The position numbers and the translations under genes are program-made. DNA of 64,000 bases from the human T2T-CHM13v2.0 reference genome, Homo sapiens. The stretch lies in NCBI RefSeq assembly GCF_009914755.1, contig NC_060925.1, one strand, 5' to 3'. Shown piece by piece: positions 7,702-64,000 of this stretch (its first letter is position 1; each line of letters opens with the position of its first letter). A model generated the notes under the pieces. It searched no databases. It was given only the letters and a program-made list of their open reading frames with translations, and was not told the origin of the DNA.

Positions 7702-8264
7702 GCCCTCTGCTGAAAGTTTGCAAAATGGGATACTCACTACCTGCCATTCTTCCATATGTCCGCCTGCTTTTGTTCAGTCTTCCAGCACCTTCAAATTATA
7801 TAATATATATATGAAATAAATTTTTCTAGTTTATAGTCGTTATCTGTGGGAGAGTTACTCTGAAAGCAGCAAGAAGCCATTACCAGATGCAGATCTCATT
7901 CTGTCAGTAATGGCAACCCAGCAAATAGGGCAGGAGCCCCACCCAGGTGTGGATCAATGCATGGCTGTATAACCTTGAACAAGCTGCTTAGTCGACCTCT
8001 GAAGTCAGTACTGCTGTATGAGAAATGGAGATATGAAAAGAACAGGAGTGCTAGGGTGCCCAAGGGAGAAAAGAGTAGGTAACAAGATTTTCGGTCAGGA
8101 GCATGAGAAACAGGGAGAGGGTCGCCATTAACTCCCCTTCTTCACCAGAGTTTTCTGGCACCCAAGACTACAGAAACTCTCCTGCAGTGGGCTTTGGGGC
8201 ACATCGCAAGTTCCAGTAACAAGGGCTAAGGTCGCCCGCTTTTGGAGACCTTACAAAGCATGTA

Positions 8265-8337
8265 TTCCCTGACCAGGAATCGAACTCGAGCTGCAGGCGG
8301 TGAAAGCGCCGAATCCTAGCCACTAGACCACCACGGA
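8265..8337 (-). tRNA. tRNA-Glu(TTC) variant, probable pseudogene
   Basis: TCCGTGGTGGTCTAGTGGCTAGGATTCGGCGCTTTCACCGCCTGCAGCTCGAGTTCGATTCCTGGTCAGGGAA. A and B boxes are retained. It has a 1-nt insertion and acceptor/T-stem mismatches. Confidence 0.9.
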
Positions 8338-8453
8338 AACAACAGCAAGCACTTTTCATTCCTCTTGCCTTCCAAAGGTTTCTCCAAAAGGTGAACCTGT
8401 CTGCAATGCTCACGAAGCCCGCCAGATGCACAAGTCAAAACTGATCTAGAGAT

Positions 8454-13665: not shown

Positions 13666-13972
13666 TATCTGGAACCTAGTTTGATCTGGAGGGATCTTAT
13701 TTTATAGGAGGCTTGGAGGGGGACCTTTTGCTTTGTGTACTTATAGGATGCACAAGACACAAGGGAACAATCTCTCACTTTTTAAATACAGTGATAGGCC
13801 TGAGGAGAAACAACTGCAATTTTTTTTTTTTTTTTTTTTTTAATGAGATGGGATTCTCACTGGTCTTGAACTGAGCTCAGGCGAGGCTTCCCCTACGTCG
13901 GCCTCTCAAAGTGTTGGGATTAATAGGCGTGAGCCACCGCGCCTGACCACAACTAACCAACATTTAAAAGCA

Positions 13973-14046
13973 CGTCCCTGGGTAGGCTCGAACCACCAAC
14001 TTTCCGGTTAACAGCCGAACGCGCTAACCAATTGCTCCACGGAGAT
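13973..14046 (-). tRNA. tRNA-Asn(GTT) variant
   Basis: ATCTCCGTGGAGCAATTGGTTAGCGCGTTCGGCTGTTAACCGGAAAGTTGGTGGTTCGAGCCTACCCAGGGACG, 74 nt, with G1>A and other substitutions and a TTTT terminator just downstream. Confidence 0.92.
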
Positions 14047-14728
14047 AACCTCAGTTGGTCGCTTTCATCTCAACATAGATTAAGCAATCACTAAACTCTA
14101 GGGGTTGCCATTCGCTTTCTGCAGGACAACTGTGCAGACTACAAAGCTTCGGAAAACCGGAGAGGCTGAGTCGACTAATCGTGTTGTTGCACGTTAGAAA
14201 CGCTTGCATTGCCTGACTCTGAAACCAGAAGGGCGGCCGAATGGCCTTCACCCTCCATTAACCCTCGCCTCCTTCAGAAGCCAGTGCCTCTGGAAATGCC
14301 TGGATCTGCGACCCCAGCCTGAGCCTAGTAGGGCCCAAGGGAAGCTGAACGCCCCGACGGCTCTCATGGTAGGTAGCTCTTTCTGTTTTTTTGCGCCGCC
14401 TTCAGGCAATCATCTACTCCGCTTGCTATCCCCTCACTCAACTCGGCTTCAGTAGATGGGGTTGGTGGGGCGGGAGCGGGAAAGAGGCAGGGGAGTCAAA
14501 AGGGAAAACCTGAAAAGAAGGAGGGAGAAGAAGCAGGGGAGACCAGGACGAGACAATGGGACAGCCCAGGATGCCGGTGCAGAGGGCAGCGGCTGGATGC
14601 AGAGAAGATGGGACACGTATCAGAATGGACTGGAGAAGACGTGAGGGAAAATCACAAGAACCTGTAGCTGCCCAAGAATAAACACGTAAAAATCGCATAA
14701 ATGTTTTTACATTAAAAAAAAAATCGGG

Positions 14729-15856: not shown

Positions 15857-16828
15857 CACCCTACCCACTGCCCCCTTCGCCATTCTTCCAAACCACTCTC
15901 TGCCAAAGATTCCACCGACAGTCACCCCACACGACAACCCAGGCCGCCTTTCAGCAGTGGCTCCCGCCCCGCAACCACGCGCCCTCTCACCCCCGCGGTT
16001 CTGCCCGCCGCCTCTGTCCAGTCTGTGCACTTCACCTCCCTGGCTCCCGCTCTCCCCTGAGCTTACAGTGGACGCGGGGTTCTTCCAAACCCCTCTTGGG
16101 AATACTGAATGGAAAAGGGGGAGCGTGCGCAAGTGCTTGGTAGAGTGTAGACATTGTGGGATTTGACTGTGGTACCATCGCTTTGACGTCCTAGTGCTGA
16201 TTTTTACACCTGCATTCTGCTTAGGGCACTGGCAACAGTTTTCCGTTTGTGCCTACTCCACCTGCTGTCTTTGTTGGGTCAGCGAACATCGCCTCCCTCT
16301 ACCGCTCAATCAGCAAAAGGGACCGCCCTTGAGGACCTCACCCGCCGCTCACTCCCCTCCCAACTTCGCGGGCATCGCCTCCGGTCGCCTCTTCCGAAGG
16401 CCTAACGAGCATGTTAGCTGCGAACGGAGGTGAGGAGGCTCCGCTGACTGACCGGTGCCCACGTCCAGGGCACGCACAAACGCCATGACTTGGCTTGGCC
16501 TCTCTCTTAGTTATTCACAGCTCAGCCCGATAGGCACCTCTGGGGCGGCGACGGCAAAGAGGGTGCGCTTATTAAGTGCAGCTCCACGGGGACTGGCCTC
16601 TCTGCACGGCTGTGTACACCTGAGCGAGACGCTCAGTCGCTCTCTAAAGCCGCTTCTGCGGATGACAGACACGGAGATAAACGTGAGAGGTGGCCCACCA
16701 CGACTTGCCCTCCTTTGCCCGGGTTTGCCCCTCGCTGCGGAGGCTGTTCTACATCTGGCCCTTGGAGCAGGCCGGCTGACAGCGTGGTAAAGGAAGATTT
16801 CTGCGGGAGGGCGGCCAGTGCAAAACAA

Positions 16829-16900
16829 TTCCCTGACCGGGAATCGAACCCGGGCCGTGGCTCTTTCAGCACCGAATCCTAGCCACTAGACAACCATGCA
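16829..16900 (-). tRNA. tRNA-Glu-derived gene with a GAA (Phe) anticodon, probable pseudogene
   Basis: TGCATGGTTGTCTAGTGGCTAGGATTCGGTG-CTGAAAG-AGCCACGGCCCGGGTTCGATTCCCGGTCAGGGAA. The body is Glu-TTC and the B box is perfect. Confidence 0.88.
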
Positions 16901-18218
16901 GATGCGGAAAGCTGCTTTCTCTCCCTTCTTCGACCTGAAGCGACACTTTCCTGTGCTCTAGGAGGACTTGGGTCTTGTGAGAGTCGCCCTTTGCTCCTGG
17001 AGTCGTCTCACAAGGCCGTTCACTCCCTGCTTTCTTCAAAAAAAGAACCTGCAGGCGACACACCAAGGACTCCACGAGGGAGTCCTGAGTACTGGAGCGA
17101 GTTGCGGCCACGCGGCCGCAGCTCACCACTGGCCTAGAGATGCCCTTTGCGAGGCGGCAGCAACTGACAAGATGGTCGCGGGTCGCCGGGTCCGGAGCCG
17201 CCCACCAGGTTGCCAGGAGGAGGCGGGAGCGGGGAGGCGCCCGAGGTGAGACAGGGGCACCCTCTGCATCATAAAGGACCCAGACCCCGGCACCCTCAAC
17301 ATCATAAGGAATCAGACGGATGCGGAAACCGAGACGGGCTGGATAGGAAACTCTTTCCAGGAAGGCTCCGGGGCACTCAACTGGTCTCCAACCTTCCCCT
17401 GCAACCTGTGACGCCTGCCATTTTCCCATTTTAGGCGATGGCAACGCAACCCCTCCGTTTGCTCTGGGCAAAACTTCGAGAGTTCCCTCTGAAGCTGGAG
17501 CTTTTTCCTCAGATCCAAGATCCAATTGGTCACCAATTCGTGATTTCCGTCGGCCAAGTGCGTGGGCATTGATCTACACGCGAGTTTCTCCACCTCTGCC
17601 GAATGGCTACTTCGGGGTGGGGGAGGGGCCCTCCCGCCGTGGATTGCAAGGTGTTTAGCAGCATCTGTCTCCTCCGCTGACTAGACACATGCCAGGGGGA
17701 TAACATTCTCCCTCCCGCTTCCCCCAGCCGCGGCCTAGTGTCCCAGCGGGGTTGGGAGAGGCATGTGAGGGCGAAGTTGCCCCCTGTTGAGAACCATTGC
17801 TGCGCGTAGTCCTTCTCTCTGAACTTGTGCAGAGGACTCTCCAGGTGAAGGCTCAAGGGTGGATCCAGCTCGAGACACCCTCGCTCCCCCTCACAGTCGG
17901 ACCTTAGGATTTAGGCTTTAACATCTCCACATCATGAGATTCGAAACCTTTAGGTCTTGTCTTCCGTTCTGTCCTCCAAATCGGCCTCTTCCGAGCCTGT
18001 TGACCAGGGCCAGCCGGGCAGAGGGCTGGGCTCGCTCAACGAGGCTCCTCTCGCACCTCCTGGAGCTTCAGGCTTCTTTCCGTTGCAGAGAAGCTTTATG
18101 GGCCAATTCGTTCGGCATCCCCGGGGGCAGGTGCGCGGTGCGCGGGGAAGAAGAGGATTTGACTGCGGTTCTCCACCCCCGGCGCCCAACCTCCACCCCG
18201 GTGCGCGCGCTCTTCCAG

Positions 18219-18366
18219 GCTCCTGCTGGTCCCACTTGCCAGGAGTTAGGTCTCAGGTCAGCCTGAGCTCCTGAGACGCCCAGGCCCGGAAAGACACGTA
18301 GGGGAAACCATCTGCTCACTTCTGTCCTGTCCGGAAGGGATCCCTTTCTGACGGGAAAGAAAGGCG
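18219..18366 (+). ncRNA. Candidate lncRNA exon (LINC00869/LINC00623-like family)
   Basis: tcttccag acceptor and gcg|gtgagt donor. The family assignment is from recall only. Confidence 0.4.
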
Positions 18367-52719: not shown

Positions 52720-53365
52720 AAGATGGCTATTATTTTAAAAAGAAGGAAAGAAAATTATCAGTGTTGGTGATGATGTGGAAAAATTGAAACCCCTGTGCAC
52801 TGTTGTTTGGAATGTATTAGGTTGGTGCAAAAGTAACTGCGGTTTTTGTCATTACTTTTAATGGCAAAAATCGCAATTACTTTTGCACCAACCTAATAAA
52901 ATGGTACAGCCACTGTGGAAACCCATATGGTGGTTCCTCAAAATATTAAAAATAATTATCACATGATCCAACAAATTTACTTCTGGCTATATACTCAAAA
53001 GAACTGAAAGCAAGGATTCAAAGAGATATTTGTGCACCTACATCAATAGCAGTATTACAATAGCTAAAGAAGGGAAACAACCCAAGTGTCCAACAACAGG
53101 TAAATGAATAAACAAAATGTGGCAAATACATGCAATGGAATATTATTCAGCCTTAAAAAAGAAAAGAAATTCTGACACATGCTACAACATAGATGAACAT
53201 GAGGATATTATGCAAAATGAAATAAACCAGTCACAAAAGGAAAAAATACTATATAATTCTGCTTATATGAAGTATCTAGAGTAGTCAAATTCATAGAGAC
53301 AGGAAATAATGGTGGTTGTGCCAGGGGCTAGGGAGGGAAGAATGGGAAATTAATGGGTATAGCGT
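52720..53365 (+). mobile_element. L1M 3' end fragment
   Basis: aaaattgaaacccctgtgcactgttg...gaatattattcagccttaaaaa...gtagtcaaattcatagagacag. Confidence 0.85.
52817..52896. mobile_element. MADE1 (Hsmar1 mariner-derived MITE)
   Basis: 80-bp palindrome ttaggttggtgcaaaagtaa...ttacttttgcaccaacctaa flanked by TA on both sides. Confidence 0.97.
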
Positions 53366-55006: not shown

Positions 55007-55747
55007 CCCTCTATTTATCAGACAGATGTATAGAAAGTTTATTGTGCTAGCAAGAGTATGAAGAAAAGGATTCTCTGAGTTGAAAAAACAAATTGGAATA
55101 TAAATTGGTACCACTTCTATGGAAGGCAAATTTACAGAGCTTATTAATTAAAATAAAAAATGTGTACTGTAACCACTATGATACAGCAGTTGCGCTTCCA
55201 GAACTCTACCCTATAGAAATCCGTGTACAAATAGCAAAAGATATTTGTACAAGAATGATGACTGCAGCATTATTTGTAATCGTAAAATCATGGAACAAAC
55301 TTAATTTAAAAAACAACATGTAAAGGGTTAGATGATGGAATAAACAAAAGAAGAAATGCCTTCATCAAAAATAATGCAGAGGATAATAATAATCTTGAGT
55401 CTACTGATAACATTATTGATTGAGCAATTATTAAATCTAGGCACATCCTGCAAATGCGGTATTATTACCATCCTCATATTACAGTTGAAAAAATATTGAG
55501 GTACAAATAGCTTGTCAATAGCCCAAAGGCACAAAGAGAAGCAAGATTTCACCCAGAACCCGTGAACAGATCACACAAAATTTCTCTTGTTCCCTGGTCC
55601 AAGGAACTTCTGTACCTTCCAACTGCATTTCTTTCCAACAGAGACCTTCTTGGAGGATGAGAAGCAGCCACTAGTTGACAGGAGGGGAAGTGAGGCATGT
55701 AGTCTTCAAGGGAGCAGACCACCGTGGGAGTTATAAAAGATCAGCGA

Positions 55748-55821
55748 CGCCTCTGGGTGTGTTCGAACCACCAACTTTTTAGTTAACAGCCAAACGCGCT
55801 AGCCGATTGCGCCACAGAGAC
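55748..55821 (-). tRNA. tRNA-Asn(GTT) isodecoder
   Basis: GTCTCTGTGGCGCAATCGGCTAGCGCGTTTGGCTGTTAACTAAAAAGTTGGTGGTTCGAACACACCCAGAGGCG, with TTTT 9 nt downstream. Confidence 0.95.
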
Positions 55822-56132
55822 ATGGCTGAGCTCCTGATTTCATTCTAAAAGAGGGTAAGCTGTCACTAAACGCTAGCTAGCACCATCCGCCTTTTGCAAA
55901 ATGACTGGGTAATCTCCAAAGCCTCGGAAAGCCGGAGCAGTCAGAGCGACGAATCTACTTGTTTGTCAAGCTTGAAACCTGTGCACTGAGTGATTCCGAA
56001 ACGCCCCGCACCCCGCCTTGCCCCCTCACCTGCCTCAGAAGCCGGCGCTTCCGGAGATGCCGGGATCGCGACTCCTGTTAGAGCGACTTGGGCCCCAGGG
56101 AAGCTGAAACGCCCAGGGTGCTCAATTAGGAC

Positions 56133-62900: not shown

Positions 62901-63757
62901 CCAAAATTCAGACCAAGAAAGAGAATAGTTGTGTGGATCAAAGTCTGCAATTAACCAAAAAAGAAACATGATCCTGTGTTAGCTTACTTAGGAAAAAAGG
63001 AAGAAGGAAGGAAAGAAGGAAGGAAGGGAGGAAAGGTTGGAGGGAGGGAAGAAAGATGAAAAAATCAACCAAAAAAAGAACATAATTTCCTAACTAATCG
63101 GATGTGGGTCATGAGAGAAAGACCTGCGTCCAGTTTTTGGCCTGAACGTGTGGAGGGTGGAGTTGCCATTAACTAACGTGAGAAAAGGCAGGTGTAGTAC
63201 GTTGTAGAGAAAATATCCGGAATTCCGTTCAGGGCCCTGGGGTCTTCCTTGAAAGAGTTTTCCATCCAGGCCGTCTCGGTTTCCGCATCCGTCTGAGTCG
63301 TTTATGATGTCGGGAATGCAGGAATCTGAGTCCTTTATGATGTTGAGGGTGCCACGGTCTCACCCCGGGCGCCTCCCCGCTCCAGCCTCCTCCCGGAAGC
63401 CTGGTGCGCTCTGGCCCCGCCGACCAGCGACAGTCTCTCCACGCGCTGCCGCCTAGCAAAGGCGCATCTTTAGGTCGGTAGTGAGGTGCGGCCGGGACGC
63501 TGCAACTCGCTCCGGGACTTGTAAACCTGGCAGGTGTTCGAGGAGCGCCACTGGCTGGAAGGAAAGGAGAGAGCTCTGCACGTCGCGTGTGGGCTCGCAA
63601 CTTGGAGAAAGCAGGGAGAGGACAGCCTTTTGGGACTATTCCTTGGATGGGCGGGTGGCACCAGGAAGGGTAGATGGAGCTTTCTAGAGGTCAATGTCAG
63701 CGTAATTTCTGCTGAAACAATTGAAGGAGGAAAAAAAAAAAGTATGTGCTTTGTGGT

Positions 63758-63826
63758 TCCCTGGTAGTCTAGTGGCTAAAGTTTGGCGCTCTCACCGCCG
63801 GGACTGGTTGATTCCAGATCAGGGGA
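63758..63826 (+). pseudogene. tRNA-Glu(CTC) pseudogene
   Basis: tccctggtagtctagtggctaaagtttggcgctctcaccgccgggactggttgattccagatcagggga, 69 nt, with deletions in the variable region and T arm that break the B box. Confidence 0.88.
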
Positions 63827-64000
63827 CTGGGTCTCGGCCTCACTGTGAGGTATTGTTCTTTCCTGTGTTTGCCATCTACCACCGCTGTGGCTCAATTATT
63901 TCAAGACTGCTGGAGAAATGGAATTAATGTCGATCCTAACATTTAAGCTATTTATCTAGGATAAATTCCAAATAGTGGAACTGCTAGGTGAAATTTATTG

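What the first reader, a model, noticed from the sequence alone, without database searches (positions are those of the whole stretch)
16829..16900. tRNA anticodon recoded Glu to Phe by apparent hairpin micro-inversion
Seen: the Glu-TTC loop CTTTCAC is replaced by CTGAAAG. The reverse complement of the ancestral loop is GTGAAAG, a 6/7 match. All three anticodon bases changed, while the D arm and T arm stay almost perfect. Inference: one template-switch inversion between the stem arms (CGGCG/CGCCG) explains this better than four clustered substitutions. That would be an unusual route to anticodon switching, to the exact complementary anticodon. Acceptor and anticodon stems now have mismatches, so charging is doubtful, but the internal promoter looks intact.
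Basis: partly seen in the sequence, partly recalled or inferred. Interest (0 to 1): 0.7.

Follow-up and report, generated by a model that had tools for sequence, protein, structure and literature searches.

The report
Flipped anticodon loop in dead tRNA
A broken copy of a human glutamate tRNA gene carries the exact complementary (phenylalanine) anticodon, likely from one DNA-copying slip across its hairpin; published data show no mature tRNA from it, so it is a clean example of a known mutation type in an unusual place, not a new working tRNA.

Summary
Window 16829-16900 (-), annotated TRF-GAA9-1, is a tRNA-Glu(TTC) body (62 of 72 bases identical) whose loop reads CTGAAAG. Four recent chr1 copies share this loop; five sister and three outgroup paralogs keep CTTTCAC, so it is derived. 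One interstrand template switch would invert the 5-nt spacer and turn the C32/C38 mismatch into a C-G pair, with no GTGAAAG intermediate; none was seen among 42 Glu-bodied loci. Only 2 of 2,835 four-change loops fit such a template. The gene is dead: both stems are broken, PheRS determinants G20, G30-C40 and A31-U39 are missing, mature tRNA is zero in 8 of 8 published samples, and Pol III signal is about 1% of an intact Glu-TTC gene in iPSC and cardiomyocytes. Signature scans found no second case in this genome, prokaryotes or viruses. The mechanism is known (genome-wide; rRNA hairpins); I found no report of it in an anticodon loop. One event in a pseudogene: neat, modest interest.

The parts
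16829..16900 (-). tRNA-Glu(TTC)-derived pseudogene body, annotated TRF-GAA9-1
   Evidence: 62 of 72 bases identical to intact Glu-TTC paralog L005; flanks 92% identical to the 1p36 Glu-TTC loci over 6.9 kb
16863..16869 (-). anticodon loop 32-38, CTGAAAG; 33-37 is the inverted spacer, G38 pairs with C32
   Evidence: shared by 4 of 4 recent copies
16859..16868 (-). inferred copied tract, positions 33-42 = reverse complement of parental 28-37
   Evidence: 10 of 10 match in L002 (L003 has the same body), 9 of 10 in the window copy because of the private C39A
16870..16874 (-). 5' arm of anticodon stem (27-31), with later C30T at a CpG
16858..16862 (-). 3' arm of anticodon stem (39-43), with G43A at a CpG (all four copies) and C39A (window copy only)
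16882..16893 (-). A box, one change (G9T)
16840..16850 (-). B box, identical to the intact parent
16894..16900 (-). 5' acceptor strand with C2G and C4A, giving G-G and A-G mismatches
16907..16919 (-). short perfect inverted repeat just upstream; possible second template switch (7 nt, 4 differences), not significant alone
   Evidence: chance level 0.42 hits of this class per 3.1-kb alignment

Best explanation
This is a dead tRNA-Glu(TTC) gene copy whose anticodon loop was likely rewritten in one replication template switch across the anticodon hairpin. Shown: positions 33-42 equal the reverse complement of parental 28-37; the change is derived and shared by four recent copies; the stems are broken. 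Inferred: the nascent strand, copied up to C32, paired through the 5-bp stem repeat with the opposite strand, extended from the C32 mismatch, copied the spacer backwards (TTTCA to TGAAA) and on into the stem (C38G), then returned in register. Because T33 and A37 are complementary, the inverted loop still reads T33-NNN-A37 and the anticodon becomes its exact complement, which is why tRNA annotation calls it Phe-GAA. The event happened once, after the split from the 1p36 Glu-TTC genes (7.7-8.0% diverged) and before the duplications that made the four copies (0.18-0.87% diverged). It yields no working tRNA.
For: Exact 10-nt reverse-complement tract that removes all four loop differences; the only >=10-nt, >=4-difference hit in 3,126 aligned sites, seen once in 150 simulations; 2 of 2,835 four-change loops fit. 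All four loop changes are transversions on a branch whose far flanks changed about 4% with 36% transversions; probability of this exact loop by independent changes 2e-9 to 9e-7. Polarity: 5 of 5 sister and 3 of 3 outgroup paralogs have CTTTCAC. No intermediate among 42 Glu-bodied loci: 35 canonical, 4 inverted, 3 with other changes. The pattern 'mismatch corrected plus spacer inverted' is the published signature of interstrand switching (PMC5453318 passages; PMC8794818 passages). Dead gene.
Against: The tract is 10 nt, below the 14-nt cut used for the high-confidence set in PMC5453318, and the upstream flank is too diverged (18% over 100 nt) to meet that paper's 95% flank rule. The body has three further transversions outside the loop (C2G, C4A, G9T), so the local substitution rate is above background. 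Five- to seven-nt matches also arise in the reversed, non-complemented control, so only the length and in-place symmetry carry weight. No non-human primate sequence was available. In rRNA, plain loop inversions (69) outnumber inversion plus mismatch correction (6), which keeps a two-step path alive.
Confidence: 0.78

Rival explanations
1. Two steps: a clean inversion of the whole 7-nt loop (GTGAAAG) followed by G32C, or of the 5-nt spacer (CTGAAAC) followed by C38G.
For: Plain loop inversions are about ten times commoner than inversion plus correction in rRNA hairpins (69 vs 6); each path is one substitution from the observed loop.
Against: Needs one further specific transversion, about 0.7% per site at the branch's flank rate, that happens to create a perfect 32-38 pair; no copy shows either intermediate.
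Confidence: 0.12
2. Same inverted-template copying, but during double-strand-break repair (microhomology-mediated break-induced replication) rather than at a replication fork.
For: Proposed for microinversions flanked by 4-8-nt inverted repeats (PMC8755829 passages); the stem here is 5 bp.
Against: The same passages note that template switching converts imperfect inverted repeats into perfect ones, which is what C38G does; their events were 17-33 nt, this spacer is 5 nt. The end products cannot be told apart from sequence.
Confidence: 0.06
3. Four independent or clustered point substitutions in a decaying, mutation-prone tRNA pseudogene that resemble an inversion by chance.
For: The body and the 40 nt upstream are more diverged than the far flanks (9 changes in 72 nt and 7-8 in 41 nt vs about 4%).
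Against: Even granting four changes in the loop, 2 of 2,835 outcomes fit an inverted template; no stepwise intermediates.
Confidence: 0.03
4. Short gene conversion from a true tRNA-Phe(GAA), or copying from the direct 6-nt repeat about 50 nt upstream.
For: The anticodon matches Phe; a GAAAGC word lies at window 16919-16914.
Against: tRNA-Phe genes shown have loop CTGAAGA and a different stem, so a Phe donor leaves A37 and G38 unexplained and offers no flanking homology; 5-6-nt direct or reversed matches occur by chance nearby.
Confidence: 0.01
5. On function: the locus makes a low-level, charged or regulatory tRNA-like RNA with a Phe anticodon on a Glu body.
For: B box intact, A box one change; weak RPC1 peaks in two iPSC lines, classed 'restricted'.
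Against: Mature tRNA 0 in 8 of 8 samples; peak scores 6.8 and 3.7 against 571 and 310 for the neighbouring Val-CAC-4-1, summits 59-75 bp off the gene, no BRF1 peak listed; broken acceptor stem; missing PheRS determinants. Precursor or fragment RNA was not tested.
Confidence: 0.04

Closest known systems
Short-range template-switch mutations, four-point model (Loytynoja and Goldman 2017, PMC5453318; passages read)
   Same: Near-perfect inverted repeat made perfect and the spacer inverted in one event; length conserved.
   Different: Tract is 10 nt (their high-confidence set starts at 14); event is older than the human-chimp comparison they used (inferred from divergence); the hairpin is a tRNA anticodon arm.
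Hairpin loop inversions in rRNA, class 'compensatory mutation + loop inversion' (PMC8794818; passages read)
   Same: Inverted loop inside a structured-RNA hairpin with a mismatch corrected; 6 such cases and 69 plain loop inversions reported.
   Different: That study covers rRNA; 'tRNA' occurs once, in a reference title. Here the loop is an anticodon, so the inversion changes the coding label.
tRNA anticodon shifts / remolding in primates (PMC3923123, PMC4981973; passages and one whole supplement read)
   Same: A tRNA body of one identity carrying another anticodon; mostly recent and mostly pseudogenes.
   Different: The 75 shifts in PMC3923123 are 71 one-base and 4 two-base changes, none three-base, and pseudogenes were excluded; the primate list in PMC4981973 file 2 has no Glu-TTC to Phe-GAA event; 'inversion' is not invoked for any shift in the passages found.
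Human tRNA-Leu-CAA-5-1, a Met body with a Leu anticodon (tRNAscan-SE 2.0 paper, PMC8450103; passages read)
   Same: Anticodon-based name disagrees with the body.
   Different: A Met body with CAA differs from CAT at one anticodon base (seen) and scores 66.5 bits; this locus differs at three, scores 32.2 and is not mentioned in that paper's main text.

Membership tests
tRNA-Glu(TTC)-derived pseudogene | Body and flanks descend from a Glu-TTC gene | tested here: met
   62 of 72 body bases identical; 6.9 kb of flank 7.7-8.0% diverged from 1p36 Glu-TTC loci
tRNA-Glu(TTC)-derived pseudogene | Broken structure and no mature product | tested here: met
   Acceptor and anticodon stem mismatches; mature tRNA 0 in 8 of 8 samples in PMC10791582 supplement
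Functional human tRNA-Phe(GAA) | Anticodon G34 A35 A36 and discriminator A73 | tested here: met
   Sequence against determinants in PMC9976931
Functional human tRNA-Phe(GAA) | G20 | tested here: not met
   C follows G18-G19; determinant
Functional human tRNA-Phe(GAA) | G30-C40 and A31-U39 in the anticodon stem | tested here: not met
   T30.G40 and G31/A39 (G31-C39 in the other copies); determinants
Functional human tRNA-Phe(GAA) | Paired 7-bp acceptor stem | tested here: not met
   G2/G70 and A4/G68 mismatches in linear numbering
Functional human tRNA-Phe(GAA) | Aminoacylation by PheRS | not testable with these tools
   Needs an in vitro charging assay
Four-point template-switch mutation (PMC5453318 criteria) | Copied fragment >=10 nt, >=95% match, all four bases | tested here: met
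   10 of 10 in L002 and L003; 9 of 10 in the window copy
Four-point template-switch mutation (PMC5453318 criteria) | At least two fewer differences than the forward alignment | tested here: met
   0 vs 4 differences
Four-point template-switch mutation (PMC5453318 criteria) | Fragment >=14 nt (their filter for the analysed set) | tested here: not met
   10 nt
Four-point template-switch mutation (PMC5453318 criteria) | 40-nt flanks >=95% identical to the source sequence | tested here: inconclusive
   Downstream flank nearly identical, upstream not; the rule was set for human-chimp pairs, here the comparison is between 8%-diverged paralogs
Four-point template-switch mutation (PMC5453318 criteria) | All changes arise on one phylogenetic branch | tested here: inconclusive
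   True among human paralogs; non-human primate orthologs not available
'Compensatory mutation + loop inversion' class (PMC8794818) | Symmetric source and target across one hairpin, length kept, an imperfect pair made Watson-Crick | tested here: met
   Source 28-37, target 33-42; C32/C38 becomes C32-G38

The most novel reading that the evidence does not exclude
Anticodon-loop inversion is a general one-step route from an anticodon to its exact complement: the T33/A37 symmetry keeps the loop canonical, so template switching recurrently makes chimeric tRNAs, and some in other eukaryotes are transcribed and misread codons or have founded new tRNA identities.
Probability: 0.06. Interest if true: 0.75.

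Novelty: new member of a known kind. Interest (0 to 1): 0.35.

Why it matters
It shows that a three-base anticodon change, absent from the published catalogue of 75 shifts, can likely arise in one mutational step, and it explains a misleading gene name: TRF-GAA9-1 and its three copies are Glu pseudogenes, not Phe genes, which matters for tRNA copy counts and read mapping. It also gives a searchable signature (C32-G38 pair with T33-NNN-A37 on a body of the complementary isotype) for scanning other eukaryote genomes. As one event in a silent pseudogene it has no shown effect on translation.

Tried and rejected
Search for intermediates: 42 Glu-bodied loci in this genome, none with GTGAAAG, CTGAAAC or a partial set of the four changes on this lineage (loci with more than 3 mismatches in the 27 fixed places are missed). 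Search for other inverted loops by their 32/38 signature with intact A and B boxes: 100 of 127 matches listed; 21; 26; 13; 42; 71; 9; only the four copies of this event were seen. The other rows were judged by eye, from recalled isotype and repeat sequences, as MIR/Alu matches, canonical tRNAs read out of register, or single substitutions. Not covered: intron-containing tRNAs, loci with damaged boxes, spacer-only inversions that leave 32 and 38 unchanged, most long-arm classes, and the 27 unlisted rows unless their B box keeps its CpG. Free-energy folding was uninformative (z-scores near 0; the parent reference was also five bases out of register and is not used). The primate tRNA table of PMC4981973 (file 5) has no such sequence, so it gave no ortholog. 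Conversion from tRNA-Phe and direct-repeat copying were rejected (see rivals). A second switch upstream is suggestive only.

Full report
1. Observation. The minus strand of 16829-16900 is a 72-nt tRNA body with loop CTGAAAG. ARAGORN and Rfam at gathering score miss it. A DNA search of the own genome scored 40 of 50 candidates and returned three near-identical copies (L002-L004), five 1p36 paralogs at 83-84% (L005-L009), three more distant paralogs with homologous flanks (L010, L011, L028) and unrelated-flank Glu genes. All 4 near-identical copies have CTGAAAG; all 8 flank-sharing paralogs have CTTTCAC. Against L005 the window copy differs at 10 of 72 places; C39A is private to it and C41T to L004.

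2. History. Over about 10 kb the four copies differ by 0.18-0.87%; they differ from two 1p36 loci by 7.7-8.0% over 6.9 kb. Polarised with outgroups L010 and L028 over 2,596 sites, 104 changes fall on the branch to the four copies, 92 on the 1p36 branch, 36 are ambiguous; in the tRNA body the counts are 9 and 0. So the 1p36 genes stayed intact while this lineage decayed. Using recalled divergences (human-chimpanzee about 1.2%, human-macaque about 6-7%), the four copies are probably younger than the human-chimpanzee split and the split from 1p36 is roughly 25-40 million years old; this dating is inference and gene conversion could shorten the first figure. A review passage on the neighbouring FCGR1 triplication places the separation of the 1p11.2 and 1q21 copies after the human-chimpanzee split (PMC11659932).

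3. Mechanism. A length-conserving four-point search finds that derived positions 33-42 of L002 equal the reverse complement of parental 28-37 with no mismatch, removing all four loop differences. The parental hairpin is a 5-bp stem closed by a C32/C38 mismatch; the product has C32-G38 and the 5-nt spacer inverted. This is the published signature of an interstrand switch: a near-perfect inverted repeat made perfect with its spacer inverted (PMC5453318 passages; PMC8794818 passages, where it is the class 'CM + loop inversion', 6 cases, beside 69 plain loop inversions in rRNA). Shown: the match, its symmetry, its polarity. Inferred: that it was one event and happened at a fork.

4. Chance. Independent substitutions give this exact loop with probability 2e-9 at the far-flank rate, 2e-7 at the body's rate outside the loop and 9e-7 at the upstream rate. 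Given any four changes in the loop, 2 of 2,835 outcomes have a >=10-nt reverse-complement template within 30 nt. In the real 3,126-site alignment of L002 and L005 this is the only >=10-nt, >=4-difference hit; 150 simulated alignments gave 1. Shorter hits (>=7 nt, >=3 differences) are common, 0.42 per simulated alignment, and the reversed non-complemented control gave three. Against the reading: the tract is under the 14-nt filter of PMC5453318, the upstream flank is 18% diverged, and three other transversions hit the 5' end of the body.

5. Intermediates and recurrence. A loop-agnostic Glu-body pattern found 42 loci: 35 canonical (9 TTC, 26 CTC), the 4 inverted copies, and 3 with unrelated changes on CTC bodies; no intermediate. 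Signature scans for other inverted loops among tRNA-like loci with intact boxes found only these four copies (limits listed under Tried and rejected; row classification by eye and recall).

6. Function. Acceptor stem: two mismatches; anticodon stem: two mismatches and a wobble in the window copy; D and T stems as in the parent. Of the PheRS determinants listed in PMC9976931 (passages) the anticodon and A73 are present; G20, G30-C40 and A31-U39 are not. In the supplements of PMC10791582, tRNA-Phe-GAA-9-1 lies at hg38 chr1:143,792,723-143,792,803, 11.27 kb from Val-CAC-4-1 against 11.20 kb in this window; I take it as this locus from the shared name and position, although it is drawn 80 nt long and the spacing differs by 73 bp, which I did not explain. 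It scores 32.2. Mature tRNA is 0 in 8 of 8 samples, as for the two tRX-Phe-GAA entries that are probably its copies (not verified). RPC1 share is 70-176 times below Glu-TTC-3-1 in three iPSC and two cardiomyocyte samples, 9-19 times below in two NPC samples and about equal in two neuron samples where both are low (9 sample rows seen). Against a flat 'silent': weak RPC1 peaks were called in two iPSC lines and the gene is classed 'restricted'; but scores are 6.8 and 3.7 (neighbour Val-CAC-4-1: 571 and 310), summits lie 59-75 bp off the gene, and none of its six entries in that file is in a BRF1 column. The site is inside an annotated enhancer and lncRNA first exon, so background at open chromatin is my inference. 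Supplement files 13-17 were not searched and may hold more.

7. Literature. Searches for a prior description (listings and abstract starts) turned up no paper on an anticodon-loop inversion or on this locus's origin; the library lacks most subscription papers, and GtRNAdb's own isotype flag for the locus could not be seen. PMC3923123 (passages) reports 71 one-base and 4 two-base shifts of 75 and excludes pseudogenes. PMC4981973 (passages, file 2 whole, file 5 searched) lists no Glu-TTC to Phe-GAA event and holds that most alloacceptor remoldings are pseudogenes. bioRxiv 10.1101/661942 (passages) excludes segmental duplicates; its supplements could not be seen. PMC8450103 (passages) describes anticodon/isotype disagreement without this case. 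PMC8755829 (passages) offers break-repair as an alternative route to microinversions and does not mention tRNA.

8. Verdict. Real, well supported and sharper than first read: an exact one-step product of a known mutation process, sitting in an anticodon loop where T33/A37 symmetry disguises it as a normal tRNA-Phe. It is a single event, copied four times, in a pseudogene with no detected mature product. New member of a known kind; interest 0.35.

Noticed in passing
window 16907-16919 (-): Perfect 6-bp inverted repeat with a 1-nt spacer just upstream of the tRNA, absent from the 1p36 sisters; fits a second template switch (7 nt, 4 differences) but is within chance for its class.
   Followed up: partly
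window 8264-8338 (-), 13972-14047 (-), 55746-55822 (-), 63758-63827 (+): Further Glu-TTC, Asn-GTT, Asn-GTT and Glu-CTC tRNA remnants called by ARAGORN that have no row in the supplied annotation.
   Followed up: no
window 17088-17452 vs 63155-63519: Inverted paralogous block at 77% identity: the upstream region of this tRNA recurs ahead of the Glu-CTC remnant.
   Followed up: no
window 52815-52898: mir-548-family hairpin matching Rfam above gathering score on both strands.
   Followed up: no
window 16600-18366 (+): The pseudogene lies antisense within exon 1 of LINC02591, so the lncRNA strand carries the loop as CTTTCAG, close to the original Glu reading.
   Followed up: no
L005 and L006, about 40-28 nt upstream of the tRNA: A perfect 6-bp inverted repeat with 1-nt spacer in two 1p36 copies where other copies have an imperfect one; another possible template-switch footprint.
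   Followed up: no
G000:C10:100451880-100451914 and G000:C2:96058086-96058120: Glu-CTC-bodied pseudogenes with loops CTGTTAC (Asn-type anticodon, two changes) and GTCTCAC (32-38 pair closed); neither is an inversion.
   Followed up: no
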